DNA of 64,000 bases from Anolis carolinensis. Its lineage: Eukaryota. A program made the position numbers and the translations under genes. Below, in pieces: positions 1-64,000 of the stretch. Position 1 is the stretch's first letter; the number at the start of each line of letters is the position of its first letter. The DNA lies in assembly GCF_035594765.1 (NCBI RefSeq), contig NW_026943821.1, positions 18,383,608 through 18,447,607 on the forward strand, given 5' to 3'. The notes under the pieces are model-generated. The model was not told where the DNA came from and searched no databases. It saw nothing but the letters and a program-made list of their open reading frames with translations.

Positions 1-73
1 ACTATTACTACATGTATTATTTTCTTGTATTATTATTTATTATTATTATGACATGTATTATTTTACTCTATTA

Positions 74-396
74 CAGTAGAGTCTCATTTATCCAACATAA
101 ACGGGCTGGCAGAACGTTGGATAAGCAAATATGTTGGATAATAAGGAGGGATTAAGGAAACGCCTATTAAACATCAAAATAGATTATAATTTTACAAATT
201 AAGCACCAAAACATCATGTTATACAACAAATTTGACAGAAAACATAGTTCAATATGCAGTAATGCTATGTAGTAATTACTGTATTTACGAATTTAGCACC
301 AAAATATCACAATGTATTGAACACATTGACTACAAAAATGCGTTGGATAATCCAGAACGTTGGATAAGCGAGTGTTGGATAAGTGAGACTCTACTG
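74..396. mobile_element. Tc1/Mariner MITE family B (about 320 bp), the most abundant repeat in the window
   Basis: TIR CAGTAGAGTCTCACTTATCCAA, TA TSD; copies at 686-980, 10596-10900, about 12706-12975, 22397-22694, 23800-24107, 39845-40160, 42242-42563, 47131-47452, 49421-49743, 53439-53652, about 57089-57220. Confidence 0.9.
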
Positions 397-1822
397 TATT
401 ATTAAAAGGATACATAAGCACATTTACATTGAAGAAGATGAGAATAATGATTTAATCTGAGTGGGACAGTCTTATCTTAAATTAGAGCTTTATGTAAATA
501 TTCAAAAACATTGCTTCAATTAATGTAATTTTATTGGTATCTGTTTTTATTTCTGAAATTTACCACTATCGGCTTATACTGGAGTCAATGTTTTCCCAGT
601 TGTTTTGTGGTAAAATTAGGTGCCTCGGCTTATATTCGGGTCGGCTTATACTCGAGGATATACAGTAATCAATGTGTTACAAATACAGTAGAGTCTCACT
701 TATCCAACATTCTGGATTATCCAACACATTTTTGTAGTCAATGTTTTCAATATATCATGATATTTTGGTGCTAAATTTGTAAATACAGTACATAGCATAA
801 CTGCGTATTGAACTACTTTTTTTGTCAAATTTGTTGTATAACGTGATGTTTTGGTGCTTAATTTGTAAAATCATAACCTAATTTGATGTTTAATAGGCTT
901 TTCCTTAATCCTTCCTTATTATCCAACATATTCGCTTATCCAACATTCTGCCGGCCTGTTGGATAAGTGAGACTCTACTGTACACATGTTCATAGAAAGC
1001 CTAGCTCTTATACTCAAGGTTTGTGAGTCCAATGATACAAAGTTCATGTTCCACATAGAAGACTGTGCATTCAAACCTATATGTCCAAATTTGTAAATCT
1101 TTTGAATCCAAAATTTTAAATAAATCCAAAGTTTATAACCACCCACGACCAGTTTTGACTGTGTAGTCTTCCTCAGGTGGTAGTTTACAAAGGTACAGAA
1201 AACCTAGAATAGCCAATTTTCCATTGTAGCAAGTTCTTCAAATAAATAAATTCAATGTATAAGTATCATCGACGGAGTATACAAGTGTTTTATAGCCACT
1301 CATATGTATTCCCTGTAGGTCCATCCCATCGATGATACTTATACATTAGGTGACCTTGGGTAAGTCACACTCTCTCAGCCTCAGAGGAAAGCAGCAGCAT
1401 CCTCTCTTTGAACAAGTCTTGCCAAGCAACCCCTGTGATTGGATTGCCATAAGTTAGTAAGTAAGTAAATAAGTAAGTAACTTTATTTTTCTACCCCGCC
1501 ACCATTTCCCGGCAGGGACTCGGGGAGGCTACATGGGTCAGAAGCCCAAAATACAAAACAATAAATCAGTTAAAACATATTGCAATGCAAACACAATAAA
1601 ATCAGCAGTTATACAAAACAGTTACCTTAACCAAAACAATACAGTAAATCATAAAATCTCAGTTAACATATAAATCAGATAAAAATAAGATCAGTTAGAA
1701 TAAAATAAAATAAAATGGGCCACCAGTTTGGTGGAGGGGATGGCATGGTTAGGAATGGCTTGAAGGCACAATGACCTAATCTAACCTAAAACTAGGAAAT
1801 GAAGCACCTAAATATTAGGAAT

Positions 1823-1825
<3 letters not shown>

Positions 1826-1906
<81 letters not shown>
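1826..1906. repeat. (TAA)n microsatellite
   Basis: Direct reading; similar tracts at about 20217, 40236, 54075-54520 and 58865. Confidence 0.95.
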
Positions 1907-1909
<3 letters not shown>

Positions 1910-2579
1910 TTATGTTTTTATTCTGTGTGATAGTGGAATCAATTGTATGGCACTGTTGTGGACTTTTCTTGTAGCTTTGAATCCCGGCTGATTTCTGACT
2001 GGTGGAATACTTTGTTGGGAGGAGTTAGCTGGCCCTGATTGTTTCCTGTCTGCAATTCACCTGTTTTCAAATTGTTATTCTTTATTTATTGTCCTGGTTT
2101 TAATTTTTTTTATAATTCTTAGAGCCAGGTTTAGGAGGTTTTGTTGGAGCCAGTGGGAGTTTTGTGGGAGCCTGGGAGGGCGCTGAGTGGAGCACTATAA
2201 GTTACCTTTAGTAAAAAGATTATCTTGCGACCTTTATGAGGACCACATTACCATTTCACAGATGGGAAAACTGAAGGTATAAAACAGCTAGACTTGTTAC
2301 CTTGAACTAAGATTTGAAGACTTGAAGATCTAACAGCCTTCTGGCTATTAGGAATTGTGGGAGTTGAAGTCCAAAACAACTGGAGGGCCAAAGTTTGCCC
2401 ATGCCTCATTTACACTATTCTCTACAGATGTTGCAACACAGACTTTACATACTTTCATCCTTTTTAAGCTTTTAAGATGAAAATAACAACCCCTGGAATA
2501 AATCCAATTTTCATTCTGAAAGTCTGTACACTGTGGTAGTGTATTTCAATTATAAGAGCAAGTACCAGTTGTTACAAAA

Positions 2580-3260
2580 TGGATCTTGGAGCCCTCGTGG
2601 ACAAGTTAAACATGAGCCAACACAGTGGCAGTGCCTTAAAAATCCAATGGGATTTTGGCCTGCATCAATAGGAGTTTCTAGATCCAGGGAAGTCATGCTA
2701 TTCTGCTATTCCAGGGAAGTCATGCTATTTTACTCTATTCTGCCTTGGTCAGGCCAAGGAATACTGTATCCAATTCTGAGCACCACAATTGAAGAGAAAT
2801 GTTGACAAAATGGAAAGTGTCCAGAGGGCAAGTAAAATGATCAAGGGTCTGGAGAACAAGCCCTATGAGGAGCGGCTTAAAGAGCTGGGCATGTTTAGCC
2901 TGCAGAAGAGAGGGCTGAGAGGACACATGATAGCCATGTATAAATATGTGAGGAGAAATCATAGGGAGGAGGGAGCAAGCTTGTTTTCTGCTTCCCTGCA
3001 GACTAGGACGCGGAACAATGGCTTCAAACTGCAGGAAAGGAGATTCCACCTGAACATCAGGAAGAACTTCCTCACTGTGAGAGCTGTTCAGCAGTGGAAC
3101 TCTCTGCCCTGGAGTGTGATGGAGGCTTCTACTTGGAGGCTTTTAAGCAGAGGCTGGAGGGCCATCTGTTGGAGGTGCTTTGAATGTGATTTTCCTGCTT
3201 CTTGGCCAAATGGGATTGGACCGGATGGCCTACAAGGTCTCTTCCAACTGTAGAATTCTA
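2580..3260 (+). mobile_element. CR1 LINE 3' fragment (degenerate)
   Basis: [23 protein letters not shown] similarity to the 62.8-kb copy; frameshifted. Confidence 0.92.
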
Positions 3261-3524
3261 TTTATGTTTTACTAATTGCTTATTATTGATTGTTGTTGGT
3301 TTTAAACTGCATTTGTTGTTGATTGTTGTTGGTTTTATTTTGCATTTAATTGCATTATAACAAGCTGGAAGCCACTTTGGGTCCCTTTGTGGGAGAAAAG
3401 TGGGATATAAATACATGTCACTAATGCTTTGTGATTGTGAATATCAGGTACAGAGCTTTCTTCAGATATGAAATTGGTCCATAAAAAAGTGGTCCCTACC
3501 TAAATATCTTAAAGGCACCAGCTT

Positions 3525-3700
3525 GTGCTTGATCTTGAAAACTAAACAGGGTCAGCACAGGTTAGTACGTTGATTGGGAGCCAACAATAAATATCAAGTG
3601 TTGTACACTAGATTTCAGAGTAGGAACTGGTAAAAACACCCCCAAGTATGCCTTATCTTAAAATATCCTATGAAATTAATAGTCATAATAAGTCAACAGC
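3525..3700 (+). mobile_element. Degenerate 5S-derived SINE
   Basis: TGATCTTGAAAACTAAACAGGGTCAGCACAGGTTAGTACGTTGATTGGGAG resembles the 5S internal control region. Confidence 0.6.
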
Positions 3701-4508
3701 TGACTGAATGAATGCACACACTACACCAACTTGCCCAAAGCTCCACTTTGCCAACTGCTTAGAATCATAGAATAATAGAGTTGGAAGAGATCTCATGAGC
3801 CGTCCAGTCCAACCCCCTGCCAAGAAGCTGGAAATCGCATTTAAAGCACCCCCGACAGATGGCCATCCAGCTATGCTATCCAAAGAGCTGTTCGGAAGTG
3901 GAATTCTCTGCCCCAGAGTGTGGTGGAGGCTCCTTCTTTGGAAACTGGATGGCCATCTGTCAGGGGTGCTTTGAATGTAATTTCCTGCTTCTTGGCAGGG
4001 GGTTGGACTGGATGGCCCATGAGGTCTCTTCCAACTCTATGATTCTATGAAAGCACTAGCGCTATCTCTCTCTCTCTAGGCTGGAGTAAGGAGCCTCTGA
4101 TGGCCTAGGGGATAAAAGCCTCGTGACTTGAAGATTGGGTTGCTGACCTAAAAGCTGCCAGGTTCGAATCCCACCGGGGTAGAGCACGGATGAGCTCCCT
4201 CTTTCAGCTCCAGCTCCATGCGGGGACTGAGAGAAGCCTCCCACAAGGATGGAAAAACATCAAAACATCCGGGCATCCCCTGGGCAATGTCTTTGCAGAC
4301 GGCCAATTCTCTCACTCCAGAAGCAACTCCGGTTGCTCCTGACAAGAAAAAAAAAATCTAGGCTGGAGTTATACTTTAAACATATACCTGTTCCATCTTA
4401 CAAACGAATTCAGCTTAAGAATAAGCCTACAGAACCTATCATTTTTTAAATTTGGGAACTGCCTATATTTTTCGAAGGTTCGTGGGAGGGAGAGGCCTCC
4501 TTCCTTAC

Positions 4509-7500
4509 CTTGGACGCTGGCCTCACTTCAATTATCTGCGTCCGGGGAGAGAGCTTCTCCGCGCGCGTTCCTTGTGTCTCCGGAGGACTGGAAGGGGACA
4601 AGAAAAATGTATTATTTATTGAATTACTACATATATTTCTACCCTGAAGGGGACTCAGAGCAGCTTGAAAAAAACTTGAAAATGCTCAAGAAAACCTTAT
4701 GAGAAAAAGTAAGTATCGAGCCAAAAATGGGGGCGCGACTATTGCATGGTGAGGACTATTATATACATCTCCCAAGTGCTCCTCCCTCTGCCCTGCACCA
4801 GCCAATCACCTCCCACATGCAAATTCCCCCTACTTCACAATTCCCACTAGCAGAGCCAGCCCTAGGTAATTTTCAAGTGTAAGCAAGCAGTATTTTTGAT
4901 GGCACCCCCTGCCCCCGCTCCCGCNNNNNNNNNNNNNNNNNNNNNNNNNNNNNNNNNNNNNNNNNNNNNNNNNNNNNNNNNNNNNNNNNNNNNNNNNNNN
5001 NNNNNNNNNNNNNNNNNNNNNNNNNNNNNNNNNNNNNNNNNNNNNNNNNNNNNNNNNNNNNNNNNNNNNNNNNNNNNNNNNNNNNNNNNNNNNNNCTGTA
5101 TCCATATCTATCTATATCTATATCTGAAAACCTGTATGTGTGTATGTGTCACGGTGTCTGTCCACACAGACAGCCTCTGGCCTCCACAAACAGGCTATAG
5201 TTCCCAGTGCTGAGGAGCCACCGAGTCACTCCATCACAGGTCCGCAGTTTGGGGGTCCTCCTCGATTCAGCGTTGACGCTTCAAGCACAGGTGTCGGTGG
5301 TGGCTGGGAGGGCCTTTGCACAACTCAAGCTTGTGCGCCAACTGCGACCATACCTCGTGAAGTCTGACTTGACCACGGTGGTGCATGCCTTAGTTACCTC
5401 TAGATTGGACTACTGTAATGCGCTCTACGTGGGGCTTCCCTTGAAGACGGCCCGGAAACTACAATTGGTCCAACGATCGGCGGCCAGATTAATAACGGGG
5501 GCAAGTTACAGGGAGAGATCCACTCCCCTGTTTAAGGAGCTCCACTGGCTGCCGTTCATTTTCCGGTCCCAATTCAAGGTGCAGACCATCATCTATAAAG
5601 CCCTGAACGGTTTGGGACCCACCTACCTCCGTGACCGTATCTCCTACCATAAACCTGCCCGATCTTTACGCCCTTTTATCACCTATATCCCAGGCCCGCC
5701 TTGTGAGTACAAGGGAGACGGCCTTTTCCGCTGTGGCCCCCCGACTATGGAATGCACTGCCCACTGAGATCAGGCAAGCTCCCACTCTGTTAGCTTTTAG
5801 GAAAGATTTGAAAACATGGCTCTTCCGCTGTGCTTTCGGTGAGTAATTTTGCTATATATGTCTGTGTTACTCCCCCCTCAGCATTTATTTTCTAGACTGC
5901 CCTACTTTCTTGTGTCACTGCCCACAATGGAGTACCCCCTCTGTCCCTCTCACTCCGAGTTTTATCCTTGTGTCCATGCGGCCTGACCTTGTTTAACTGG
6001 TTTTTTTTTTTTTGGATTTCTTGATGTAATGTCTATTATCATCTATTGTATTGCTTTTAATTGTGTAATGATATGTTGTTTTTATATGTTATTATATTGT
6101 ATTGCTCTGGGCGTGGCCCCATGTTAGCCTCCCCGAGTCCCCGTTGGGGAGATGGTGGCGGGGTATAAATAAAGTTTTATTATTATTATTATTATTAAAT
6201 CTGTCTGCATAACAAACACAGCAGAACTGAGCACCAACTAAATTTACTGGAGGAATTTGGGGGATTGGCTTCACATGGTGGAAGTTGTAGTTCACCGTGC
6301 ATCAAGTCAGAGCACTGTGACTCCTACTGGGGAATGTAGAGGAGTTGTAGTTCACCTACACCCAGAATGCTATGAACCCAAACAATGATGGCTCTGGGCC
6401 AAAATTGCCATGCATACCTGATATGCACAGATTTGAATACTGGTGGGTTTTGAGGGGAATTGGCCCGGACATTTGGGAGTAGTAGGTACTGGGATTTATA
6501 GTTCACCTGCAATGAATGAGCACTCCGAACCCCTCCGATGATGGACCAGGACCAAACGTGGCACACAGAGCCCCCATAACCAAAAGAGCATATTGGACAA
6601 GTTTGGGGGAAAGGGAGTTATAGTTCACCTGCATCCAGAGAAACAGTGACCCCCACCGACAGTTGACCAAACTTTGCACAGAGAAGCCTCATGACCAACT
6701 GAACTGCAGGGGTTTGTGGGAATAGGCCTTGATTTTGGGAGTTGTAGTTCCCATGCATTCAAAGAGCACTGAACCCAGCCAACGATGGATCTGGATCAAA
6801 CTTTGCACACGACTCAACATAGCCTGCGATGGATACTGACAGATGTTTTGGGACAATTGCCCCGGGACTCTGGGAGTTGTGGTACTTCACCCCCATCCAC
6901 AAAGCACTGCAGCCAGGCGATGACCAGCCAACAACAGATCTAAACCACACTCGGTACACAGACCCAAAATGGCCAACTTTGAATACTGGCAGGGTTTGGG
7001 GAGGATTGACCCACGATTCTGGGAACTGTAGTTCACCCACTCCAAACTGAGAATATCTAACAATCAAAAACAAATCATGCCTTTTTTAAATAACCCAGGC
7101 ATCGCTGGGTTCCCAACCTGGTGTGTATGTGTATGTGTGTGTGTGTGTGTGTATTATGTATATGTATATGTATATCTATATATCTCTATCTCTATCTATC
7201 TACCGTGTTTCCCCGAAAATATGACAGTGTCTTATATTATTTTTTGCTCCCAAAGATGTGCTAGGTCTTATTTTCAGGTGATGTCTTATTTTTCCATGAA
7301 GAAGAATTCACATTTATTGTTGAACAAAAAAAAAAATGAACATTTATCATATACTGTACAGTAGTTGTCATCATAAACCAGCATGACCAGACAAACTGTG
7401 AATCCTATCAAGAATTTCTTGTTACTACCATTATTTCCATGTACAACTGGTATGCAAATTTACCGATCCTGCATGCTCTGGTGTTCTGTTTGGCAGGCGC

Positions 7501-10500
7501 TGGGCATGCTTCCAAACAAAAACTTTGCTAGGTCTTACTTTCGGGGGAGGCCTTATATTTAGCAATTCAGCAAAACTTCTACTAGGTCTTATTTTTTGGG
7601 GATGTCTTATTTTCAGGGAAACAGGGTATATATCTCTGTATCCATATCTATCTATATCTAAAAACCTGTATGTGTCATGGTGTCTGTCCACACAGACAGC
7701 CTCCGGCCTCCACAAACAGGCTATAGTTCCCAGTGCTGAGGAGCCACTGAGTCACTCCATCAACTGACATTGCAGGTTACAGTGAGCACAATGAACATGT
7801 AACCTCAGCCCCTGCCAATGTCCTTCCCAAACACTACGGTCCACCACCCAAGGAACGCTTTCGTTTGGGGACCATTTCATCCTAGATTTTGCAAACCTCG
7901 GGAGCTCTCTCCCATGCGTCCTCTCCTGCCGAAAGCAGGAAGCATCTCCCCTAGATTTTGCATTTTCCTCCACCACAGGCAGGCATCCCAGGTTTCTCCA
8001 TTGCTGTGAAATTTGCATGACCCACCTACTGCCCTTTCCTTTCAAATCTGTCTGCATAAAAAACACAGCAGAACTGAGCACCAACTAAATTTACTGGAGG
8101 AGTTTGGGGGATTGGCTTCACATGGTGGAAGTTGTAGTTCACCGTGCATCAAGTCAGAGCACTGTGACTCCTACTGGGGAATGTAGAGGAGTTGTAGTTC
8201 ACCTACACCCAGAATGCTATGAACCCAAACAATGATGATTTTGGGCCAAAATTGCCATGCATACCTGATATGCCCAGATTTGAATACTGGTGGGTTTTGA
8301 GGGGAATTGGCCCGGACATTTGGGAGTAGTAGGTACTGGGATTTATAGTTCACCTGCAATGAATGAGCACTCCGAACCCCTCCGATGATGGACCAGGACC
8401 AAACGTGGCACACAGAGCCCCCATAACCAAAAGAGTATATTGGACAAGTTTGGGGGAAAGGGAGTTATAGTTCACCTGCATCCAGAGAAACAGTGACTCC
8501 CACCGACAATTGACCAAACTTTGCACAGAGAAGCCTCATGACCAACTGAACATACTGCAGGGGTTTGTGGGAATGGGCCTTGATTTTGGGAGTTGTAGTT
8601 CACATGCATTCAAAGAGCACTGAACCCAGCCAACAAAAAACTGGGAAAACATTGACTCCAGTATAAGCTGAGAGTGGTAAATTTCAAAAATAAAAATAGA
8701 TACCAATAAAATTACATTAATTGAGGCATCCGTAGGTTAAATGTTTTTTGAATATTTACATAAAGCTCTAATTTATTCTAACTCTGATTAAATCATTATT
8801 CTCATCTTCTTCAAAATAAATGTGCTTATGTATACTTTTAATAATAACTAGCTGTGCCCGGCCACGCGTTGCTGTGGCGAAGTATGGTAGTATGGGAAAT
8901 AAAGTATTGAGGAATTGGTGGTAGTTAAGGTAAAGGGTAAAGGTTTTCCCCTGACATTAAGTCCAGTCATGTCTGACTCTGGGGGTTGGGCTCATCTCCA
9001 TTTCTAAGCCGAAAAGCTGGCATTGTCCGTAGACTCCTCCAAAGTCATGTGGGATGACTGCATGGAGCGGCGTTACCTTCCCGCCAGAGCAGTACCTATT
9101 GATGCACTCACATTTGCATGTTTTTGAACTTCTGGGTTGGCAGAAGCTGGGGCCAACAGTGTGGGCTCTCTCCACTCCCCCAATTCAAACCTGCGGCCTT
9201 TCGGTCCAGAAGTTCAGCAGCTCAGCGCTTTAACACGCTGCGCCATCAGGGGATATTATTTCCTAAAGATTGTGAATATACAATATTTCTGATTGGTTTT
9301 TTTGTCTGTTGGAGGCAAGTATAAATGCTGCAATTAGGAAAAATGATTAGGATGTAATGGCCTTGCAACTTTAAAGCCTGGCTGTTTCCTCCCTGAGTGA
9401 TTTTTTTGTTGGGAGGTGTTAGCTGGCCCTGATTGTTTCCTGTCTGGAATTCCCTTGTTTTCAGAGTGGTGTTGTTTGCGATATTTTATGTGCTTCTACT
9501 GTCTGTGGCCCTGAGAAAACAGAGGATTTGACAGACTTTGATGATGGGAATATTTTGTTGGGAGGTGTTAGCTGGCCCTGATTGTTTCCTGTGTGGAATT
9601 CCCATTTATTTACTGTCCTGGTTTTAGAGATTATATTGTTCTGCATTATTCTATCCCATAATTATTTCATATTAAAGTAGAATCTCACTTATCCAACATT
9701 AGCTTATACAATGTTCTGGATTATCCAACGCAGTCTGCCTTTTCATAATCAATGTTTTTGTAGTCAGTGTTTTAAACCCATTGTGATATTTTAGTGGTAA
9801 ATTTGTAAATACAGTACAGTAGAGTCTCACTTATCCAACATAAACGGGCCGGCCGAACGTTGGATAAGCAAATATGTTGGATAATAATTTTGTTGTTTTG
9901 TGAGTCGCCGTGATGCCATCACTCTTTTATATATATAGATAGAGTGAAATAATAAATGCAGTAAAATAATAAATGTAACAATAGAGTAAAATAATAAATG
10001 TAATAGCAATAAGAATGTCAGAGTGAAAAAATAAATGTATTAGTCATAATAAAATAGAGTAAAATAAATGTAATAGTAACAACAATAATAGAATAAAATA
10101 AATGTAACAATAATAGGGTAAAATAATAAATGTACCATATATTCTCGAGTATAAGCAGGGGGGGGCTTTTGCAGTCCTAAAAAAGGGCTGAAAACGCCAG
10201 CTTATACTCAAGTATATACGGTATATCAGTGAAACGGGGAGAATCGGGAACCCTCTATCCCAATTGCATGGAGGAGAGATCAAGTCCCCTCCCCTCCTCC
10301 CAATCTAAGATTATCCTTTACATGCAGCTTCCTACAAACTCCTAAAAACTCCAGCAACCTTCTTAAATGATCAAGGCTCTGCGATTGGTGCAAATCCCTT
10401 CCCTTCCAGGCTTCCAATTTGTTCCAGGATTTTCTGCATTTTCCCTCTTACAATACTGGTTTGAAACTGCATAGAAATGTCAGCGTGGATAGATTATTAT

Positions 10501-13500
10501 GCCTTTAATCCTCCTTTATTAAGAGCCCCACTTTCCATCTGAACGTGCTCTAAACAGGGTGTCCCAAAAAAGGTATACACACTTAAAAACAGATACAGTA
10601 GTGTCTCACTTATCCAACATAAACGGGCCGGCAGAACGTTGGATAAGCGGATATGTTGGATAATAAGGAGGGATTAAGGAAAAGCCTATTAAACATCAAA
10701 TTAGGTTATGATTTTACAAATTAAGCACCAAAACATGTTATACAACACATTTGACAGAAAAAGTAGTTCAATACGAAATAATGCTATGTAGTAATTACTG
10801 TGTTAACGAATTTAGCACCAAAATATCACGATTTATTAAAAACATTGACTACAAAAATGCGTTGGATAATCCAGAACGTTGGATAAGCGAGACTCTACGG
10901 TACCTTAATTGAGGTTTGTTTTCTCCCATGTTAAACCCATTGGAATTAATAATGGAAATCAGGCCCTTTCTACGCTGCCTTATGTCCCAGGATCTGATTC
11001 CAGATTATCTGATTTAAACTGGATTATATGAGTCTCCACTGCCATATAATCTGGGATAAGAAGATAATCTGGTTTAAGATCCTGGGATATAGGGACAGTG
11101 TGGAAGGGGCCTCAGGCTGAATCTATGCCCTAATTCCCAGGATCTGATCCTAGATTATCTTCTTATCCCAGATTATCTGGCAGTGTAGATTCATATAATC
11201 CACTTCAAAGCAGATAATCTGGGATCAGATCCTGGGATATAAGAGCAGTGTGGAAGGGGCTTCATGGTGAATCCACACCGCCCTATATCCCAGGATCTGA
11301 TTCCATATTATCTGATTTAAACTGGATTATATGAGTCCCCATTGCCATATAATCTGGGATAAGAAGAAAATCTGGGATTAGCTCCTGGGATATAGGGCAA
11401 TGTAGATCCAGCCTCAGATTTACCGTATATACTCAAGTATAAGCCGACCCAGATATAAGCCAAGGCACCTAATTTTACCAAAAAAAACCTGGGAAAACAT
11501 TGACTCCAGTATAAGCCGAGGGTGATAAATTTCAGAAATAAAAATAGATACAAATAAAATTACATTCATTGAGGCATCAGTAGGTTAAATGTTTTTGAAT
11601 ATTTACATAAAGCTCAAATTTAAGATAAGACTGTCCAACTCTGATCAAATCATTATTCTCGTCTTCTTCAATGTAAATGTGCTTATGTATCCTTTTAATA
11701 ATAATAGAGTAAAATAATACATGTAATAATAATAAATACAGGAAAATAATAAATGTAATAATAATAATATCAGAGTGAAATAATAAATGTATTAACAATA
11801 ATAAAGAATAGAGTAAAATAAATGTAATAGTAGCAACAATAATAGAGGAAAATAATAAATGTAATAATACTACTAATAATAGAGAAAAATAATAAATGTA
11901 CCATATATTCTCAAGTATAAGCAGACCCAAATATAAGCCAACCAGGACCCTCACCCGAGTATAAGCCGAGGGGGGCTTTTTCAGTCTTAAAAAAAGGGCT
12001 GAAAAACTAGGCTTATACTCGAGTATATACAGTAAGTTTTGAACAAAGCAAATTAATTACATACATACATAATTTTATTACGGTCCATGGACCCACAGCT
12101 GTTAAGTGAATAACATACAAGAGTTTACAGAACAGTCAAACTGGGGAAATTGCTTAACAAGCACAAACTACACAAAGTCAGGTAATACCATGATCAGAGA
12201 CTAGGCTCTTTCTCAGCCTTGCTGCCACTGCAAGGAACTTTAAAAGGTGACTGGAAGTGTGAAAAGGTAAAGTCCAAAGAGAGTTGAGGAGGGAGTTTCA
12301 AGGAGACTTGCCATAAGTCGAATATGATATTTTTGGAGTAACCCTTTTGCCCCTGGTCCTTTTGTCCCTGGTCCTGTCCACCACTGGAATGGCCCCCGAG
12401 AACATAAGGCACCATTGTGCAAGACATGGTTCATGCCTCACAGTTTTACAGTCAGTTGAAACATTCTGATACTTTTAATAATTTTTCCATATGTGTTGTA
12501 TGATGCTGCCAACACACAAGCTGTTTATTCCTGTCCTCTCCCTGTATATATTATTAATACCAATGTACAGCTTTATTGATATCCAGTGAGCCCCCCTCAG
12601 TATCCACTGTTGACTGGTTACAGCTCTCTCCATGGATTCCAAAATCTGTGGATGCTCATGTCACATTATATGCAATGGTGTGGTAAAATTGCATTCCTTA
12701 TATTACAGTAGAGTCTCACTTATCCAACATAAACGGGCCGGCAGAACATTGGCTAAGCAAAAATGTTGGATAATAAGGAGAAATTAAGGAAAAGCCTTTT
12801 AAATATCAAATTACGTTATGATTTTACAAATTAAGCACCAAAACATCATGTTTTACAACAAATAGACAGAAAAAGCAGTTCAATACACAGTAACATTATG
12901 TAGTAATTACTGTATTTATGAATTTAGCACCAAAACATTGCAATGTATTGAAAACATTGACTACATAAACATTGACTAGGTAAAGGTAAAGGTTTCCCCT
13001 GACATTAAGTCCAGTCGTGTCCAACTCTGGGGGTTGGTGCTCATCTCCATTTCTAAGCCGAAGAACCGGCATTGCCCGTAGACACCTCCAAGGTCATGTG
13101 GCCGGCATGACTGCATGGAACGCTGTTACCTTCCTGCAGGATTTGAACCTGGGACCTTTCGGTCTGCAAGTTCAGCAGCTCAGTGCTTTAACACACTGAG
13201 CCACCTAAGGGAAGCTCTGGCCCAAATGGGAAGGGGGTCCCCAGAGGAGGGGGGGGCTGCCTTCTCCCTTTGGGTCTCCAGTCCCTTTGGGGGTGGTGGT
13301 GGGGGGGGGGGGGGAATTTGCATGTGGGAGGTGATTGGTCCAGGAGGGAGAGGAGGGAGGGGCCCCTGGATGGGAGGGGGGATATGCAAATTTTGGCCAG
13401 TGGGAATTGTGAGGTAGGGGGGGAATTTGCATGTGGGAGGTGATTGGTTGGGGAGTAAGAGGAGGGAGGGGCCCCTGGGAGGGAGCAGGGATATGCAAAT

Positions 13501-14280
13501 TTTGGCAGGTGGGGATTGTGAGATGGGGGGAATTTGCTTTTTAGTAGTCAATGGAGCCTCTGGTGGCTCAGTGTGTTAAAGCGCTGAGCTGCTGAACTTG
13601 CAGACCGAAAGGTCGCAGGTTCGAATCCGGGGAGCAGAGTGAGTGCCCGCTGTTAGCTCCAGCTTCTGCCAGCCTAGTAGTTTGAAAACATGCAAATGTG
13701 AGTAGATCAATAGGTACCGCTCCGGCGGGAAGGTAACGGCACTCCATGAAGTCATGCCGGCCACATGACCTTGGAGGTGTCTACGGACAACGCCGGCTCT
13801 TCGGCTTAGAAATGGAGATGAGCACCAACCCTCAGAATCAGTCATGACTGGACCTAACATCAGGGGAAACCTTTACCTTACCTTCCCTTAGGGTGGGGGG
13901 ACCCCTGAAGGGAACGGGGGGGGGGGGCAGGGCTTACCTTGGAGGATCCACAGGAACAGCTACATTTTCGGGGCCCACGCGGCGAAGCGAGCGCCTCGTC
14001 CTGACCTTCTGTAGAGGGAAGCAATGAAGGGGGCCCTCAGTGCCAGAACAGAGCTGGCCCCGGGGCCCCAAAGGGAGTGGGAGGGGAGTGTGGTCCTTAC
14101 CCTGAACCATGTTTCCAGGGCCATGCCGAGGGGGGCACGCGGAGGGACTTGTGGCGCAGAGGCATTTGTCCCAGGCGGCCTCAGTGGGACTTGTCTTGAA
14201 TGCCCTCTACCCATCTTGCTGGTCAAGAAGGAAATGGCAGGGCCAACTGACGGAGGCTTCTCAGAACCCCCGGTCTCCAT
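4509..14280 (-). CDS. Unidentified spliced gene, N-terminal 110 aa (3' part incomplete)
   Basis: Exons 14280-14101 (gccATGG start, donor gtaagg), 14008-13938 (ctctacag / gtaagc), 4587-4509 (ccccttccag / gtaagg); phases 0,2,0 give one open frame METGGSEKPP...ALETWFR-KVRTRRSLRRVGPENVAVPVDPP-SPPETQGTRAEKLSPRTQIIEVRPASK. Confidence 0.62.
5099..7121 (+). mobile_element. Non-autonomous Helitron-like element (copy 1; hosts the L2)
   Basis: Duplicated at 7636-8634; internal GGGAGTTGTAGTTCACC repeats; 3' hairpin CCCAG-GCATCG-CTGGG followed by a CTGG terminus. Confidence 0.6.
5238..6195 (+). mobile_element. L2-clade LINE 3' portion
   Basis: HALVTSRLDYCNALYVGLP...LQLVQRSAARL...LHWLP; frameshift near 5670; 3' stem-loop and (TTA)n tail. 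Confidence 0.92.
7203..7626. mobile_element. Mariner-type MITE
   Basis: TIRs CCGTGTTTCCCCGAAAAT / ATTTTCAGGGAAACAGGG flanked by TA. Confidence 0.75.
7636..8634 (+). mobile_element. Non-autonomous Helitron-like element (copy 2, 3'-truncated)
   Basis: 7636-7760 matches 5099-5236; 8045-8634 matches 6197-6785. Confidence 0.6.
8848..9939 (-). mobile_element. Helitron with captured repeat cargo
   Basis: 5' TC, 3' hairpin GCCACAGCAACGCGTGGC plus CTAG; inserted between A and T of a Mariner element with no TSD. Confidence 0.8.
10960..11417. repeat. Tandem cluster of palindromic PIF/Harbinger-like MITEs
   Basis: Three units of about 150 bp, GGCCC(T)TTCTAC...GTGTGGAAGGGGCC; relatives at 24661-25045 and about 62680. 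Confidence 0.65.
11423..12032. mobile_element. Tc1/Mariner non-autonomous element (family A)
   Basis: TIRs CCGTATATACTCAAGTATAAGCC / GGCTTATACTCGAGTATATACAG, TA TSD; other copies at about 1-665, 8640-10221 and 49321-50541. Confidence 0.85.
13300..13540. repeat. 109-bp tandem repeat rich in octamer and CCAAT motifs
   Basis: ATTTGCAT at 13316 and 13425; ATGCAAAT at 13384 and 13493; ATTGG at 13334 and 13443. Confidence 0.8.
13552..13880 (+). mobile_element. Sauria SINE
   Basis: tRNA-like head (TGGCTCAGTGTGTTAAAGCG...GGTTCGAATCC) and ACCTTTACCTT tail; further copies at about 4085-4356, 12977-13205, 18170-19180, 24365-24635, 36664-36965, 50855-51100, 51337-51665 and 60507-60818. Confidence 0.9.
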
Positions 14281-14609
14281 GGCAAGAATGGAACCTTTTC
14301 AAAGGAAAACAACCAGCTGCTCCTGGGAGGGGAGGGGGGCCCAGCAGGATAGAAGCAAGGAAGGGTGGCCCCATGCGTCTCCCTTTTCTGCTCTTCTGCT
14401 TTGAAGGGGCAATGGGTCCCAAACTTTGTGTGACACAGTGCCAGGACAAAGTTTTTGCCCTGTAATCCACTTTCCCCATGCCTTTAGGATAAAAGTGATG
14501 AGGAACAGACATGCATAACCCAGGAACATCACCCTGTAGTTCCCAGGCGCAAGTCCACTACCAAACCTGTCTGCACGGATGGCCACGCAGCCTCTAAAAA
14601 GTGATAATA

Positions 14610-15135
14610 AAGTCCTATTCCTGGCTTGAAAGTGTGTGTTCCTGTTTGATTGTGTAGTCCTGACTTGGAAAGTCATGATCCTATTCCATAAACTATCATG
14701 TCAGACTACACAGAGAAGCCATTGAAATTCACTAGCATGTGGACAACTTCAACAGAAAGGAGGAAACCATGAAAATGAACAAAATCTGGCTACTAGTATT
14801 AAAAAAAACTCAAAAATCAGAACATCAAATAAGAAGCAACACTCTGAGACATGGGAACTAGGGGCAGCTAACAAAGGATGCCCCCAGGCAGAAAGTAGCC
14901 AGTAGATGAAGCCATTCAATGCAGATTAGGGTGATTAACTGCAACATTCACGCTGGCCTCCAACTGACAAGAGTTCATCCCTCACCCTGGACTTTCCACA
15001 GATATATATAAACCTTCCTTGCTGAGTTTCTCCATACCTCAAAACCTCTGAGGATGACTGCCATAGATGTGGGCAAAACGTCAGGAGAGAATGCTTCTAG
15101 AACATGGCCATACAGCCTGGAAAACATACAACAAC
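14610..15135 (+). mobile_element. Penelope-like element 3' fragments
   Basis: GIY-YIG tail (HVRLHREAIEI-type) and Penelope terminal repeat CTCTGAGGATG...GAAACGTCAGGAGAGAATGC; also about 21285-21480. Confidence 0.8.
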
Positions 15136-16443
15136 TCCATAAACTTTGTTTGCGTCCTAGAAACTTCATTAACTGGCCAGGACAAAGTTTTCGCCCTCTA
15201 GTCAACATTCTGCATCTTTTCACGATAAAAGCAATGAAGAACAAAAATGTTTAACCCAAGAACAACGATTTGCATATTCGCATCTTTTAAGTCTAAATTT
15301 CCAGTGGACATCCCGTGATGGCCATCTTGCAGGCTTCAAAATCCCAGGACAAAGTAGCAGGTCTGGACATTGGAGGAGAAATCCTGGGACCAACAGAACT
15401 GTATGTGGACATTTTCTCAGGTCCCAGTATTTTATTTATTTTTTTGCCCCTGAGGTAAAACCCGTGATTTGGTGCTGTTTGGAAGCACCCTGAAGTAGAA
15501 ACAAACACAATCCCAGGAACCCTTTGAAGGTTGCCTGTATTCATATCCTGGGAGTTTGTCTTGATGATATCCTTGTGATGCACCACGTACTAATTAGGCA
15601 TTCAGTTTTCCCATCAATAGACACTGACCTCCATTCCATGCCCAGTGCCATAACGTCTGATGTGTCAGATTACAGTGCCCATTGTCCTTACCCAGCATGT
15701 CCTCCTGGGTGATGGGAGTCTTAGTCCCAAAAATCTGGAGGAGGCCTCGTTCAAGAAGGCCGATTTAAACCTTGCTTTTGAGCCGAGTTCCTGAGAAAAC
15801 TGAACTGAAAGACCACAAAAGACAAAACAAAAAACACCCCAAGGAGGTTTAAACAGGCAAAAGTGTGACTCCTGAGAGGAGATCCCATTGTTAACAATGA
15901 AATAATGATAGGGAACATTTCCGATTGTGGCAGCAAGGTTCAGAGCTTGACTTAAATAATAATAATCCTTTAAAGCTAAGCCAGTATTGACACTTCACCA
16001 TAAACAGCATCCAGATTGCTGTGAACACGATCCCTTTGCGGTCTTTTCTGACGGAAACTTCAGGCCTGAGATTCTTTGAGGATCGGCCTCAAAGGGGCCT
16101 TCTTGGCCGAAGTCGAGAGGCAGCTCTCTTCCCAAACGGAGACTGAGAAGAACAAAATGGCGCTTGAGGGGCAAAGAAGGCCTTCAGACTGGGAGGAACA
16201 TCCCTTGGGAAGCCGACCGCTGCCTGAGGCTGACTCCACAAGCCAGAACAGACCCTGTTTGATACCCCTTTCCATCCCGTGGCTCAATGCAATGGGCGTC
16301 TGGAAGCTGTAGTCTGGCGAGGCAGCAGCACTCTTTGCAGGGCCCTGGTGAAACTACGACTCCCAGGATTCCACAGCATTGAGTCACCGCAGTTGAAATG
16401 GTGCCTGATTCCCACTGTTGCTTCAAAGCATTGGGTGGCAATC

Positions 16444-16875
16444 GGAGGAGGGCGAGTAAAATGATCAAGGGTCTGGAGAACAAGCCCTATGAGGAGTGGC
16501 TTAAAGAGCTGGGCATGTTTAGCCTTCAGAAGAGAAGGCTGAGTGGAGACATGATAGCTATGTACAAATACGTGAAGGGAAGTCATAGGGAGGAGGGAGC
16601 AAGCTTGTTTTCTGCTGCCCTGGAGACTAGGATGCGGAACAATGGCTTCAAACTACATGAAAGGAGATTCCACCTGAACATCAGGAACAACTTCCTCACT
16701 ATGAAAGCTGTTCAGCAGTGGAACTCTCTGCCGCGGAGTGTGGTGGAGGCTCCTTCTTTGGAGGCTTTTAAGCAGAGGCTGGATGGCCATCTGTCCGGGG
16801 TGCTTTGAATGCGATTTTCTTGCTTCTTAGTAGGGGGTTGGATTGGATGGCCCATGAGATCTCTTCCAACTCTAT
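16444..16875 (+). mobile_element. CR1 LINE 3' fragment
   Basis: [17 protein letters not shown]...[11 protein letters not shown] plus CR1 3'UTR. Confidence 0.92.
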
Positions 16876-17309
16876 AATTTATGTTTCTATGAATCCCGTT
16901 CACGCTAGAAAAGGGCTGTTTGGTGTTAGAGTTTCCACAAATCCTTCTCAAAAAACTCTCCTTTGAGGCGTTTGCTTGCTTGCGTATTTATTTATTTACC
17001 TAATTTTCACTCAAGACTGCTAACAAAAGACATCACAGTGCAGCTTAAAACAATGTAGATGCATTTGAAATATAAATACGGAAATTACAAAATGAATGGT
17101 TTGTGCCGAACTTGGGGCGTGAACCGTCCTCCCTCAAGGAAGGAGCCTTGTTGGGAATCCCGCCTCCAGTCGGCGGCCATGTTGTCCCTCCTGAAGGGAC
17201 CGAGGCAGAAGGAAAGGCCTCAAGATGGGGGCCCCAGGGAGGCCCTGGCCTTCCCCTTTCCTTGGGGAGGCTCTTCTCTTCAAGGCCTTCACACGGAGAA
17301 GCCAGAGAA

Positions 17310-17850
17310 CTCCTGAATGGCAGACACTTCTCCTCAGGACGGGGAAGGGTAGGCGATGGAGAACCTGGTTGTGGGAATACAAGTCGGAAGCCATGTCTGA
17401 AAATGAAAGAATGACAATCCCACAAAGAGGATTTTGGACCTGTTTTTCAAAACTTAGGCTTCAATTTCATTATTTTTTAAAAACCACCATGTTGAAAAAG
17501 CGTGAAAACTCCTGAATGACATACAACTCTCCTCAGGACATCTGAGGTGGAAAAGGAGAAGGGAAGACAATGGAGGACCTGGTTGTGGGAATACAAGTCG
17601 GAAGCCATGTCTGAAAATGAAAGGAGAAAGAATGACAATCCCACAGAGAGGATTTTGGACCTGTTTTTCAAAACTTAGGCTTCAATTTCATTATTTTTAA
17701 AAAACCACCATGTTGAAAAAGCGTGAAAACTCCCAAATGACATACAACTCTCCTCAGGACGGCTGAGGTGGAAATGGAGAAGGGAAGACAATGGTGGACA
17801 TGGTTGTGGGAATACAAGTCGGAAGCCATGACTGGAAAGTGAAGGAGAAA
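17310..17850. repeat. Tandem repeat, unit about 214-221 bp, about 2.5 copies
   Basis: Anchor GTGGGAATACAAGTCGGAAGCCATG at 17371, 17585 and 17806. Confidence 0.9.
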
Positions 17851-18415
17851 TGTCATCTTGTGATCAGAGGTGACCCCCCCCCCCCCCCCCAGGACTTATA
17901 ATGTGCGGCAGCAAAAAGTGCAGTCTTTGTCATTTGGCCATTGCTGTTGATGCCTGCTCAAAATTGCTTCTTTAGAAACAAACAAAGGTGTTAGAGACCA
18001 AAGCTTCCAGCAACGGAAAGGAAAACCTTGGATACATCCATGCTACATATCCCAGCATTGCACAGCATTGATCCATGGCAATTGGGTATGGCATCCCTTA
18101 AATTTGGAGCTCCGGGTCCTCCTGAAGCATCTTCCCCTTTTGCTTTGGCTCAACACTTTTGTGTGTGTGTGAGTCAGGAGCAACTGGAGTTGCTTCTGGA
18201 GTGAGAGAATTGGCCGTCTGCAAGGACGTTGCCCAGGGGACGCCCGGATGTTTTGACGTTTTTACCATCCTTGTGGGAGGCTTCTCTCATGTCCCCGCAT
18301 GGAGCTGGAGCTGATAGAGGGAGCTCATCCCTGCTCTCCCCGGGTGGGATTCAAACCTGGCAGCTTTCAGGTCAGCAACCCAACCTTCAAGTCACGAGGC
18401 TTTTATCCCCTAGGC

Positions 18416-19163
18416 CAGGGGTCCTCAAACTTTTTAAGCCGAGGGCCGGTCCACAAGCCTTCTGACTGTTGAGGGGCCGGATTATCATTTGAAAAAAAAT
18501 ACAAACAAATTCCGATGTACACTGCATATGTCTTATTTGTAGTGCAAAAACAACAACAACAACAACAACAATGAAAGGACAATACAATATTTAAAAATAA
18601 AAAACAATTTTAACCAACATACATTTATCAGGATTTCAATGGGAAGTGTGGTCCTGCTTCTGGCCAATGAGATAGTCAAGTTAATTAGGGTTGTTGTTGT
18701 TGTTGTTGTTGTTGTGTGCCTTCAAGTCATTTCAGACTTTAGGCGAGCCTAAGTCTAAAATTTATTTATCTGTTTGTTTATTTATTTATTATTTACTGCA
18801 TTTATTTACTACATTTGTATCACACCCTTATCACTCCAAAGGGGACTCAAGAGTGGCTTACAAATTATATGTACATACAATATATTATATTATTAGCATA
18901 GCACAATATTAGCATTTTATATTACTATATTGAACTATACCACTATATTGTAATATTATTAGTAATATTATATGTAATGTAGAATATATAATTAATATTA
19001 TTATATGGTATTATTATTAGTGTTATATTGTATTACATTATTATATTATCATCAATATTATATGTATATACAATATATTATATTATAAAACTGAGGGCGG
19101 GGGCCAGGTAAATGACCTCGGAGGGCCGCATCCGGCCCCCGGGCCTTAGTTTGGGGACCCCTG
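18416..19163. mobile_element. Non-autonomous hAT element inserted in a Sauria SINE
   Basis: TIRs CAGGGGTCCTCAAACT / AGTTTGGGGACCCCTG; 8-bp TSD CCCTAGGC. Confidence 0.92.
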
Positions 19164-19252
19164 CCCTAGGCCATCGGAGGCTCTGGCTCAACACTAAGAT
19201 GACCATATTAAGTGAGTTTAATTTTGGCAAGGTCAATTATCCAAAAACGATG

Positions 19253-19366
19253 AGCATTAGAGTATTTTCTGCCAGTGGTCTCCCATCTAGATACAAACCA
19301 GCCCGATCCCACTTAGCTTAGCCAAAAATCAGATGAGATGCAGTGAGATCAGGGCAGTACGGCCAT
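19253..19366 (-). pseudogene. 5S rRNA-derived sequence (5S pseudogene or 5S-SINE head)
   Basis: Reverse strand aligns over nearly the full 5S length: ATGGCCGTACTGCCCTGA..ATCTCATCTGAT..AAGCTAAG..TCGGGCTGGTT.GTA..TAGATGGGAGACC..AATAC. Confidence 0.8.
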
Positions 19367-20212
19367 TGGATGTCTGCCACTATTTCCTTGAAATCAACCA
19401 CTATAGAGAGAGATATATCTTGGCACAGGTTGGCAGGAATGTAATAAGCCCTGGCACAAGAGAGATATTTCTTGGCATAGATTTTGGTGCACAATAGACA
19501 GAAATGCAAGATGTCACAGCCTTGGGGCAAAGGGGAACTTTATTAGCTCAATTTTTGCAACTCCTGCAGTAGATCCAAAGCCTTGCTGGGGAGAAAAGGT
19601 GCAGTTTGCATCCCATGAGGGCTGTTTTGGCACGCTTCCCGGTCCCCCTCCCCATGATCTCCATTATATTCCCAGCAAAGGGGCAAGGCGTTTCAGCTTG
19701 GCACTAATTAGTCCTCGCCGCATTTCCCTGAAGGGACAAAGCAGTCGTCATCTCATTCCAGGTAATTGGAAACGAGTTTCTCAATGGCTGATGGGGAAGA
19801 GTTAACCCATGTTTCACGAATCAAATGTTGCATAATCCTCATCCGAATGGCGATCTTGTGAGGGAGACAGGCCAGAGGATTTCAGAGGTAAAAGTTAGCC
19901 AGTGATTCATTTCTGAGAAAGTGTATCCCGAGCTCTCGTCTTGTTTGGAAGTTAATGGAGAGCATTGTTCTGAGTTTAGCTTCTAGCTGTGGTTATCCAG
20001 CAGTGTGTAGATTGCCCATCTGCACAATAATTTTATTTTATGTTATGTTATTGTATGTTATGTTTTAACCGATTATTTTATCTGATTGTGTATTATTGTT
20101 TTTAGTTATTGATAAGTGTTTTAAATTGTTATACTTTGTTTCTGTTTTGAGCTCGGCCCCATGTTAGCCACCCCGAGTCCCTTCGGGGAGATGGTGGCGG
20201 GATAGAAAAATA

Positions 20213-20248
<36 letters not shown>

Positions 20249-20559
20249 TTTTCTTGGTGCCTAGGTTTTTAGGCCTGTTCCTGGGATTCTTTGGAAAACT
20301 GCATTGGATAGACTACATGAGCTCTAGTTTCGCAGATCTGTTTGTCATGGTTTTATATGGATGAGCAGATGGTAATTGGTAGATGACATATATTCCGTAT
20401 CTCAAAAACTAGAGTTGATAAGGGAAAATGAGTGCCATTTTTGGAATCAGCAGGTCAAATAGACCCAGAAACAGGGCTAACATTGGAGGCACCGAAATGT
20501 GTGTTGGGCAGTTATTGGTCCTGCTTGACCATGATGGTTATGAGCTGTGCATTCAGGAT

Positions 20560-20905
20560 GGTTTTGGATTTGTGAGACCTGGACAATGATGATACTGGAT
20601 AGGAAGAGAATCAAATGATTTGAGATGCAGCACTGGAAAATAGTTCTATGGGTGGCTAAAAAGACCAATAAATGGGTCCTATAGAAGTGAAGCCTGGATA
20701 CTTCCTAGAAGCCAAGACAATAAAACTGACGCCCTTGCACTTTGGCCCTATTATGAGATGGCACAACCCATTAGGAAAGATAATGATGCTTGGTAAAGTG
20801 GAAGCAGGAAAAGACAATATCGGAGAGACTCCATAAGGGAAGTCATAGTTGTCCTTACTTTGCAAGGGCATAGGATGACGATAGCATGACTTGGAGGCCT
20901 CTCCT
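20560..20905 (+). mobile_element. Degenerate RTE/BovB-like LINE 3' fragment
   Basis: Residual WT..DRKRI..FEM..W...L.W.AKKTN.WVLE and IMLGKVE motifs, with stops. Confidence 0.6.
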
Positions 20906-22869
20906 TGTCATAAATCATAGAATCATAGAGTTGGAAAAGACCTCATGGGCCATCCAGTCCAACCCCATTCTGCCAAGAAGCAGAAAAGTCGCATTCAAAG
21001 AACCCTGACAGATGGCCATCCAGCCTCTGTTTCAAAGCCTCCAAAGAAGGAGCCTTCACCACACTCTGGGGCAGAGAGTTCCACTCTCAAAAAGTCAAAG
21101 AAATGTAGGATACATGCAGGGATATGGAAAGTCCCCTGGTTTTGTCTAAATAGCAGCAGCTACTGTAAGCAACAGCAATCTGTTCTCCTGTTGATCGGCA
21201 GGTTGATGTTTCCATCTTTCTCTGATCAGTGATCAGTTCAGGGTCCCTTTTGCAATTACTTTTCAAAATGCAGATCCTGGTAGAATGTGAGTGTTGTTCT
21301 TTATTTACTGTCCTGATATATAAACTCCACTTGCCTAGTTTCCAACAGACCTCACAACCTCTGAGGATTCCTGCCATAGATGTAGGCGAAACGTCAGGAG
21401 AGAATGCTTCTGGAACATGGCCATACAACCCGGAAAACACGCAACAACCCTGTGATTCTGGCCATGAAAGCCTTCGACAACTTATTGCTCTTTATTGTTT
21501 CTCCCATGTAATACTATTACTCATGAGTAGTGCCAGCTAGTAATAGCTTTCAGAGCAAAGAGCTGGTGTTGGTTGCTTGATAGCGGCCACATTGCCGAAG
21601 TTGTGAATTATTTCTATTAGTCTGGAGGAACTATCCAAGGTCCTGAACCCATTTTGGGGACAATATGATCCTAGATCTTGAATTTCCCTTTTGAAAAATC
21701 TAGACTGGATCCATGCCTTGGCTTGCTATCACTGTCAATAGCAGCATTGCTACTCTTGAGCTGCACCAGCGAGGAGTGATTTGGAGAGCCAAGAGCCAAT
21801 GGCTTCAGTCTGTGAAATCGCTCCAACAGCACATTGGCACACCTATATTAACCACTCTGAGGGTGCCTCTACATGGTAGAATTAACACAGTTTGATACCA
21901 CTTGAACTGCCAAAGTTCATTGCTATGGAATTTTGGGAGTTGTAGTTTGTTGAGGCTCTAGCCCTCTGAGGCAAAGCGGGCTTAAGATCTTATAAAACTA
22001 CAGCTCCCAGGATTCCACAGCATTGAGCCTTGTCAAAGTAGTATCAGATTGTAATAATTGACAGTGTAGATACACCTACAGTGGGTGATACTTTCCATGG
22101 GATAAACACACACACACACACTATTGTTTTATTTGATTTCTTATGAATATATCTAACTCAGTAGCTAACAAATCAAATGAACATACAATATATTATTAGC
22201 ATAGCACAATATAAGCATTAAAATACTATATTGTACTATATCATTATATGGTAATATTATTAGTAATATTATATTTAATATATAATATATAATTAATATT
22301 ATTATATTGCATTATTAGTAGTACAATATTGTATTCCATTATAATTTTATTATCAATATTATATGTATACATTATTATAAATTATATATATATGTACAGC
22401 AGAGTCTCACTTATCCAAGCTAAACGGGCCGGCAGACCCTTGGATAAGCGAATATCTTGAATAATAAGGAGAGATTAAGGAAAAGCCTATTAAACATCAA
22501 ATTAGGTTATGATTTTACAAATTAAGCACTAAAACATCATGTTATACAACAAATTTGACAGAAATTGTTGTAATTACTGTATTTACGAATTTAGCACGAA
22601 AATATCATTATATACGGAAAACATTAACTGCAAAAATGCCTTGGATAATCCAGAACCTTGGATAAGCGAGTCTTGGATAAGTGAGACTCTACTGTATTAT
22701 TGCTAATAATAATGGCAATAATAATGTGATTTATCCCTCATATCAGAGGGTTCGCACATATTAGAAATATTAATATTATTAGTAATAATAATCACAATAA
22801 TGACAGGATTTGTCCCTCTTCCTAGCCCCAATATCAGAGGGTTCGCACATAGTAGAAATGGTTGTCGTG

Positions 22870-23068
22870 GGGCTGCTGACCTGCGCGTGACGTCACCACG
22901 CCGCCCGGCGTTCCTCACAGCAGCGGGAGGCCGGGCCTGGAGGGAAGCGTGTCCCGGAAGCGCGTCACTACCGACTACGGGCGAGGAAGTTCTTTCATTT
23001 CAGTGCGCCTCCGTCGCTAATAGATTGTCTTTACGGTTCCGGAGCCTTCCTTAGCCGCTGCCGCCGCC
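22870..23068 (+). promoter_or_regulatory. GNL2 CpG-rich promoter/5'UTR
   Basis: CpG-rich; CRE TGACGTCA at 22888-22895, ETS-like CCGGAAG near 22954, Kozak gccgccATGG. Confidence 0.8.
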
Positions 23069-63993: not shown

Positions 63994-64000
63994 GACCACT

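What the first reader, a model, noticed from the sequence alone, without database searches (positions are those of the whole stretch)
4509..14294. Unrecognised minus-strand gene divergent from GNL2
Seen: a strong Kozak ATG at 14280 and three exons with near-consensus donors (gtaagg, gtaagc, gtaagg) keep one frame across a 92-bp and a 9.3-kb intron; an acceptor at 14294 suggests an upstream UTR exon. The peptide is Pro-rich with a basic patch WFRKVRTRRSLRR (NLS-like, or an R-x-R-R furin-like site). Knowledge: the mammalian neighbour on this side is RSPO1, on the same strand as GNL2, and this sequence is not RSPO1. Inference: a lineage-specific gene insertion or a rearrangement breakpoint.
Basis: partly seen in the sequence, partly recalled or inferred. 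Interest (0 to 1): 0.7.

Follow-up and report, generated by a model that had tools for sequence, protein, structure and literature searches.

The report
Lizard gene riding a giant transposon
The finding is the start of a real 21-exon HEAT-repeat gene of the green anole that was likely inserted next to GNL2 through a DNA circle, and eight near-identical sister copies sit at six other genomic sites inside a 40-kb cassette bounded by two small DNA transposons, which likely moved the whole intact gene as one unit.

Summary
The three exons are real. They open a 21-exon gene identical to RefSeq model LOC103280536 (Anolis carolinensis): a disordered N-terminus plus a HEAT solenoid related to the C-terminal half of MROH6-like proteins. 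An R-spondin (by position RSPO1) still lies 27 kb left of the window, so this is an insertion, not a synteny break.

The surprise is how the family spreads. Eight copies, 7 with intact frames and about 0.4% apart, lie at six sites in a ~40-kb unit flanked by two direct-oriented 1.9-kb hobo-N14_AC-type hAT elements. Five of six sites have an exact 8-bp target duplication around the whole unit, one around a 113-kb triple array; the sixth has lost its left element. Both ends descend from one hobo copy, and in four of five insertions the two ends are each other's nearest relatives.

The window copy itself has no hobo ends. It is an older (4%) copy in permuted order relative to the hobo-free parent-like locus 3.5 Mb away. 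My searches found no vertebrate report of such a macrotransposon. Mobility today is untested.

The parts
14101..14280 (-). Coding exon 1. ATG 14280 is in frame only in this copy (one base shorter than its paralogs); in paralogs it opens an overlapping out-of-frame upstream ORF, 103 codons in 9 of 11
14212..14214 (-). Conserved start codon (MGRGHS; fits the M-G-x-x-x-S myristoylation pattern, motif recalled and untested)
14293..14312 (-).
13938..14008 (-). Coding exon 2
4509..4587 (-). Coding exon 3; its first 30 letters appear joined to exon 2 in a contig
1..4508 (-). Intron 3 (part). Exons 4-21, which encode the HEAT solenoid, lie left of the window at G000:C12:18375492-18380579
14281..17858 (-). 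Upstream flank shared with the parent-like locus and the cassette cargo
17858..17897 (.). Derived junction with about 40 bp of filler including a G run; an old repeat is cut here but continuous in the parent-like locus
17897..22890 (-). Segment S: lies downstream of the gene at C12:21.91 Mb but upstream of it here (permuted order); ends about 180 bp before the GNL2 start codon
1..22890 (-). Window part of the ~36.6-kb inserted block, which continues left to about G000:C12:18369865
23069..23071 (+).

Best explanation
The exons begin an intact, divergent MROH-related HEAT-repeat gene that was likely copied into the RSPO1-GNL2 interval through a circular intermediate, while its sister lineage was likely spread as cargo of a 40-kb composite hAT transposon. 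Step 1 (order and junction shown, circle inferred): the hobo-free locus at C12:21.87-21.92 Mb has the order gene then S; the window has S then gene, with a new junction. Step 2 (inferred): one hobo-N14 element came to flank that parent gene on both sides, most simply by insertion and a local replicative hop. Step 3 (structure shown, reaction inferred): a hobo transposase supplied in trans used the outer ends and moved element-cargo-element to six sites, each with its own 8-bp target duplication. Step 4 (inferred): recombination between the direct repeats made the triple array and partly homogenised left and right ends. The protein is predicted to be a cytosolic scaffold: an alpha-solenoid on a disordered, possibly myristoylated tail that would tether it to membranes. 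Partners are unknown.
For: Gene: open 21-exon frame equal to XP_008118100.3; spliced joins; AlphaFold2 model with residues 230-770 helical and mostly pLDDT above 90; profile match to MROH6-like proteins, probability 99.9%, 434 columns; ten of ten listed Atlas rows are MROH clusters. Cassette: 8 cargo-hobo junctions genome-wide, all 8 examined; exact outer 8-bp duplication at 5 of 6 sites, remnant at the sixth; chance about 2e-5 per site; inner ends lack their own duplication, whereas 22 of 22 free copies with both ends and 5 of 5 such neighbours among 7 fetched have one; the flanks of the triple array rejoin into one repeat (1 of 6 sites was informative); TIR and length fit hobo-N14_AC in PMC3014272; no transposase-like frame seen among cargo ORFs (read by eye); 0 fixed left/right differences. 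Selection: 19 synonymous to 25 non-synonymous variants among 10 young copies, pN/pS 0.42, p 0.004 to 0.04. Permutation.
Against: No donor with both hobo elements at the parent site is in this assembly; both parent sites are empty. The window copy has no hobo ends, so its route is inferred from sequence order only. About 1.9 kb of the parent between gene flank and S, and 3.2 kb of the parent's upstream flank, are missing in the window copy, and no empty acceptor site could be compared. None of 13 family members reaches a Maestro Pfam model in the local scan. Pairing of left and right ends is absent in the triple array (15 differences). The runs are only guessed to be RNA and tissue is not known. 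One cargo copy has a premature stop and one older copy has four.
Confidence: 0.85

Rival explanations
1. The cassette re-creates its two ends at each jump: recombination between the direct repeats releases a circle with one hobo, and replication-coupled insertion rebuilds element-cargo-element, so ends start identical like LTRs.
For: In 4 of 5 insertions the left and right hobo differ by 4-6 of 1434 sites and share 2-3 private changes; observed pairing is the best of 120 permutations. The triple array has the form element-cargo-element-cargo. Two solo hobos with their own target duplication fall in the cassette subclade.
Against: The cargo tree is star-like, so each lineage would need an unsampled intermediate donor. 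Gene conversion between repeats 37 kb apart gives the same pattern. The array ends are not paired. No circle was observed.
Confidence: 0.25
2. The dispersed copies are ordinary segmental duplications made by ectopic recombination at pre-existing hobo elements, without transposase.
For: The genome holds 2449 exact hobo 5' ends; three older or sister copies moved without hobo ends.
Against: All 13 terminal elements belong to one subclade with identical cargo junctions; each site has a fresh outer target duplication. Recombination into a resident solo by a one-hobo circle is not fully excluded, and would also explain hybrid ends.
Confidence: 0.1
3. The window locus is the parent and C12:21.9 Mb is the permuted copy.
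For: Segment S abuts the GNL2 promoter in the window.
Against: An old repeat crosses the end of S intact at C12:21.9 Mb and is cut in the window; the sequence upstream of the gene there matches an older paralog; listed A. sagrei relatives with a contig length sit on 134- and 304-Mb contigs.
Confidence: 0.08
4. The cargo genes are untranslated passengers, silenced by the strong out-of-frame upstream ATG; only the window copy makes protein efficiently.
For: Upstream ATG in good context is out of frame in 11 of 11 other copies.
Against: pN/pS 0.42 among young copies; 7 of 8 cargo frames intact; the upstream ATG is also out of frame in older paralogs, so the family has long lived with it.
Confidence: 0.15

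Closest known systems
Maize Ac/Ds macrotransposons (PMC9910405, passages read; Huang and Dooner 2008 seen only as its reference)
   Same: hAT termini of two linked elements move the DNA between them; 8-bp target duplication; can excise and increase in number.
   Different: The maize cases read are 10-28 kb alleles in experimental lines. Here it is a natural vertebrate genome, 37-kb cargo with a whole 21-exon gene, eight copies, a 113-kb array, and ends derived from one element.
hobo_AC family of Anolis (PMC3014272, table passages and second part of the hAT section read)
   Same: TIR TAGGCTTGMKC, about 1911 bp and 8-bp target duplication match hobo-N14_AC; the family is reported to take up genomic DNA.
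   Different: The parts read describe uptake inside single elements up to 15 kb and mention no two-element unit or host gene cargo.
Drosophila Ising TE between foldback elements (PMC6431247, passage read)
   Same: Large host segment moved between two DNA transposons.
   Different: Foldback, insect, laboratory-observed; here hAT, reptile.
Pack-TIRs (PMC8277862, passages read)
   Same: TIR elements copying host sequence to several sites with distinct target duplications, including rare vertebrate hAT cases.
   Different: Cargo sits inside one element and has a median of 224 bp; here two complete elements flank 37 kb.
Segmental duplications by circular intermediates (PMC7450558, abstract read)
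   Same: Reversal of block order between donor and copy with short indels at junctions, as in the window copy.
   Different: Only one of the junctions was resolved here and no empty acceptor was available.
MROH6-like / MROH2B C-terminal HEAT proteins
   Same: About 450 C-terminal residues align by profile.
   Different: No HEAT_Maestro domain; a disordered 200-residue N-terminus instead; about 21% identity; multicopy in Anolis and Hemicordylus.

Membership tests
MROH (maestro HEAT-like repeat) family | HEAT-type alpha-solenoid | tested here: met
   AlphaFold2 model; HEAT match in 13 of 13 members at E up to 10; Foldseek hits are generic HEAT/ARM solenoids with low TM-scores.
MROH (maestro HEAT-like repeat) family | Homology to the MROH C-terminal region (PF23227) | tested here: met
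   hhalign probability 99.9%, E 4e-37; PF23227 precomputed for 9 of 9 hits. The local hmmscan listed it for 0 of 13 members, so the match is remote.
MROH (maestro HEAT-like repeat) family | HEAT_Maestro domain (PF21047) ahead of the C-terminal region | tested here: not met
   0 of 13 members; present in canonical relatives. Hence filed as MROH-related, not as a named MROH gene.
MROH (maestro HEAT-like repeat) family | Orthology to a named MROH gene | not tested
   No tree with all vertebrate MROH paralogs was built.
hobo-N14_AC (hAT) | 11-bp TIR TAGGCTTGMKC, about 1.9 kb, 8-bp target duplication | tested here: met
   against the table in PMC3014272.
hobo-N14_AC (hAT) | Identity to the published consensus sequence | not testable with these tools
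   No repeat library on hand.
Composite transposon / macrotransposon | Two elements in direct orientation, target duplication outside the outer ends only | tested here: met
   5 of 6 sites exact, sixth with left element missing and a remnant.
Composite transposon / macrotransposon | Same unit at several unrelated sites | tested here: met
   Six sites on five contigs.
Composite transposon / macrotransposon | Movement by the cognate transposase | not testable with these tools
   Autonomous hobo_AC copies are reported in PMC3014272; I did not search for them.
Pack-TIR | Cargo inside a single element | tested here: not met
   Complete elements, each with both TIRs, flank the cargo.
Circle-mediated segmental duplication (window copy) | Block order reversed between donor and copy, with a new junction | tested here: met
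Circle-mediated segmental duplication (window copy) | Empty acceptor site in an outgroup | not testable with these tools
   No other squamate genome could be fetched.

The most novel reading that the evidence does not exclude
A vertebrate hAT cassette amplifies a whole intron-containing host gene through a one-element DNA circle that rebuilds both ends at insertion and can insert as a multimer of over 100 kb, the eukaryotic counterpart of IS-bounded translocatable units in bacteria, and it is still segregating in green anoles.
Probability: 0.25. Interest if true: 0.9.

Novelty: new variant of a known kind. Interest (0 to 1): 0.72.

Why it matters
Dispersed gene duplications in vertebrates rarely keep a readable mechanism. 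Here both junctions, the target duplications, the empty parent-like locus, a tandem array and an excision scar are all preserved for an intact 21-exon gene. It shows that two small non-autonomous hAT elements can likely carry about 40 kb with a working gene in a reptile germ line, far above the Pack-TIR cargo sizes reported for animals. It gives a directly testable system for macrotransposition and for the origin of lineage-specific gene families. The gene alone would be ordinary.

Tried and rejected
Pfam scan of 11 single exons: nothing significant. Foldseek gave only generic solenoids. Search for hobo ends or terminal repeats around the window copy, C12:8.66, C12:21.87 and C4:138.14 Mb: none. 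Five closely spaced same-strand hobo elements elsewhere each had their own target duplication and two gave no 3' end, so no second cassette was found; only the first 100 of 2449 ends were listed and 7 fetched. An early idea that exons 1-2 were a fragment inside a repeat was dropped when all 21 exons co-occurred. A link of the C2:154.2 copy to the C4 array from three adjacent hobo sites was rejected because its cargo groups with C2:156.1. C4:133.76 Mb shares only 0.4 kb of segment S. No run holding the stretch is on record as RNA. Three look-ups of earlier findings returned nothing. Paper searches that found no report of this cassette or of the family's expansion; a varanid gene-traffic preprint had no relevant passage. 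Subscription journals and supplements were not searched.
Full report
Observation. The three exons, their splice sites and the open 110-codon frame are as described. The window is G000:C12:18383608-18447607. Left of it I found 18 further exons, all AG-GT bounded and in frame. With the longer exon-11 donor the product is identical to XP_008118100.3, uncharacterised LOC103280536 of Anolis carolinensis, 785 aa. In contigs of four runs guessed to be RNA, exon 2 is joined to the first 30 letters of exon 3 (1 run) and to exon 1 (2 runs), with paralog alleles. A window-specific exon-1 contig begins at the donor and runs unspliced through the 14294 acceptor.

Protein. Residues 1-210 are predicted disordered apart from a helix at 52-67; 230-770 form a helical solenoid. 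Close relatives occur in A. sagrei (75%), Elgaria (40%) and Hemicordylus (35-39%, several loci). The nearest named relatives are MROH proteins, and an alignment of 13 family members matches one of 10 MROH6-like proteins at 99.9% probability over 434 columns. The HEAT_Maestro domain is absent. The conserved start is the second ATG (14214). The first ATG is out of frame in 11 of 11 other modelled copies. The basic patch is not conserved outside Anolis. Search listings describe MROH1 as a lysosomal membrane regulator (PMC13587356, PMC5450189; abstract starts only). A membrane-tethered scaffold role for this protein is inference.

Synteny. An R-spondin furin-like domain lies at C12:18356506-18357464 on the + strand; I take it as RSPO1 from its position. 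The GNL2 start is at 23069, with axonemal dynein light chain and FHA genes beyond (names DNALI1 and SNIP1 recalled). The order is the mammalian one with one block inserted.

Copies. Exon 1 gave 27 matches and exon 3 gave 40, both lower bounds. I modelled 12 copies in full and left the older ones unmodelled. Ten are within 1.1% of each other; the window copy differs from them by 3.8-3.9% and C4:138.1 Mb by 4.7-4.9% over 13,239 columns.

The cassette. Eight of the ten young copies carry the same junction to a 1.9-kb element; a genome-wide exact pattern found 8 and all were examined. The element's TIR and length fit hobo-N14_AC (PMC3014272). Units read element, 33-44 kb cargo, element, in direct orientation. 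Exact 8-bp duplications flank the whole unit at C10:11.4, C1:240.7, C2:154.2 and C5:99.6 Mb, and flank a 112.8-kb array of four elements and three cargos at C4:113.2 Mb. At C2:156.1 Mb the left element is missing and a remnant of the duplication remains. The terminal elements lack their own duplications, unlike 22 of 22 free copies with both ends among 24 examined (these were top hits to a cassette end) and 5 of 5 such neighbours among 7. Seven of 8 cargo genes are intact. Variants among the 10 young copies are 19 synonymous and 25 non-synonymous, pN/pS 0.42 (p 0.004, or 0.04 if 30% of sites are taken as synonymous). I saw no transposase-like frame in the cargo.

How the ends relate. All 13 terminal elements form one subclade (modest support) with two free solos, and no site separates left from right. 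Two independent insertions are therefore unlikely; one element was duplicated. In 4 of 5 testable insertions the two ends differ by 4-6 of 1434 sites and share private changes; the array's outer ends differ by 15. The observed pairing is the best of 120 permutations. The cargo tree is star-like at 0.3-0.5%. Gene conversion after insertion and regeneration of ends at insertion both fit; I could not separate them and favour conversion.

The parent and the window copy. C12:21.87-21.92 Mb is empty at both hobo junctions and continuous with ancestral sequence on both sides. It carries, downstream of the gene, a 5-kb segment that in the window lies upstream (22890-17897). An old repeat crosses the end of this segment intact there and is cut in the window, where about 40 bp of filler joins it to the gene's upstream flank. 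This is the order reversal described for circle-mediated duplications (PMC7450558, abstract). A double template switch would look the same. The block ends about 180 bp before the GNL2 start codon.

Comparison. Two-element hAT macrotransposons are known in maize (PMC9910405, passages), foldback composites in Drosophila (PMC6431247, passage), small Pack-TIRs in animals (PMC8277862, passages) and a Helitron-borne gene in fish (PMC4021074, abstract). Eight searches showed no vertebrate two-element hAT unit with a whole gene and no account of this family; the library lacks most subscription journals.

Verdict. The gene is a new divergent member of a known protein kind and is already annotated. The cassette is a new variant of a known kind of mobile element, with structure shown and reaction inferred. 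Interest 0.72.

Noticed in passing
window 14101-14214: The first 38 codons from the conserved start differ far more between close copies (dS 0.39, dN 0.16) than the rest of the gene (dS about 0.02), hinting at exon-1 exchange among paralogs or fast change.
   Followed up: partly
window 22695-22890: A 90-bp AT-rich repeat, two units here and a 2.4-kb array in the parent-like locus, sits directly against the GNL2 promoter; the insertion may have changed GNL2 regulation.
   Followed up: no
G000:C12:8660181-8700273 (L064-L068): A 40-kb sister copy without hobo ends sits inside another repeat with a small deletion and no target duplication, a third route of dispersal.
   Followed up: partly
L095:760-1330: CpG-island-like segment with a short Glu-rich frame, found only at C12:21.91 and C12:8.69 Mb.
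   Followed up: partly
L073:5119-9999: The C1 cassette holds a nested 7-kb insertion with a long BEL/Pao-type frame (DUF1759, integrase core, DUF5641).
   Followed up: no
L102:6596-6900: The right end of the C5 cassette has an extra short stretch of cargo start plus a second hobo 3' end; the target duplication lies outside it.
   Followed up: partly
G000:C4:81.82-81.84 Mb: Three older partial copies of exon 1 at about 5.5-kb spacing.
   Followed up: no
P0019-P0024, P0084-P0099: The same family is multicopy in Hemicordylus and A. sagrei, so expansions recur in squamates.
   Followed up: no
window 62808-63998: Reverse transcriptase frame of a LINE, 397 codons.
   Followed up: no
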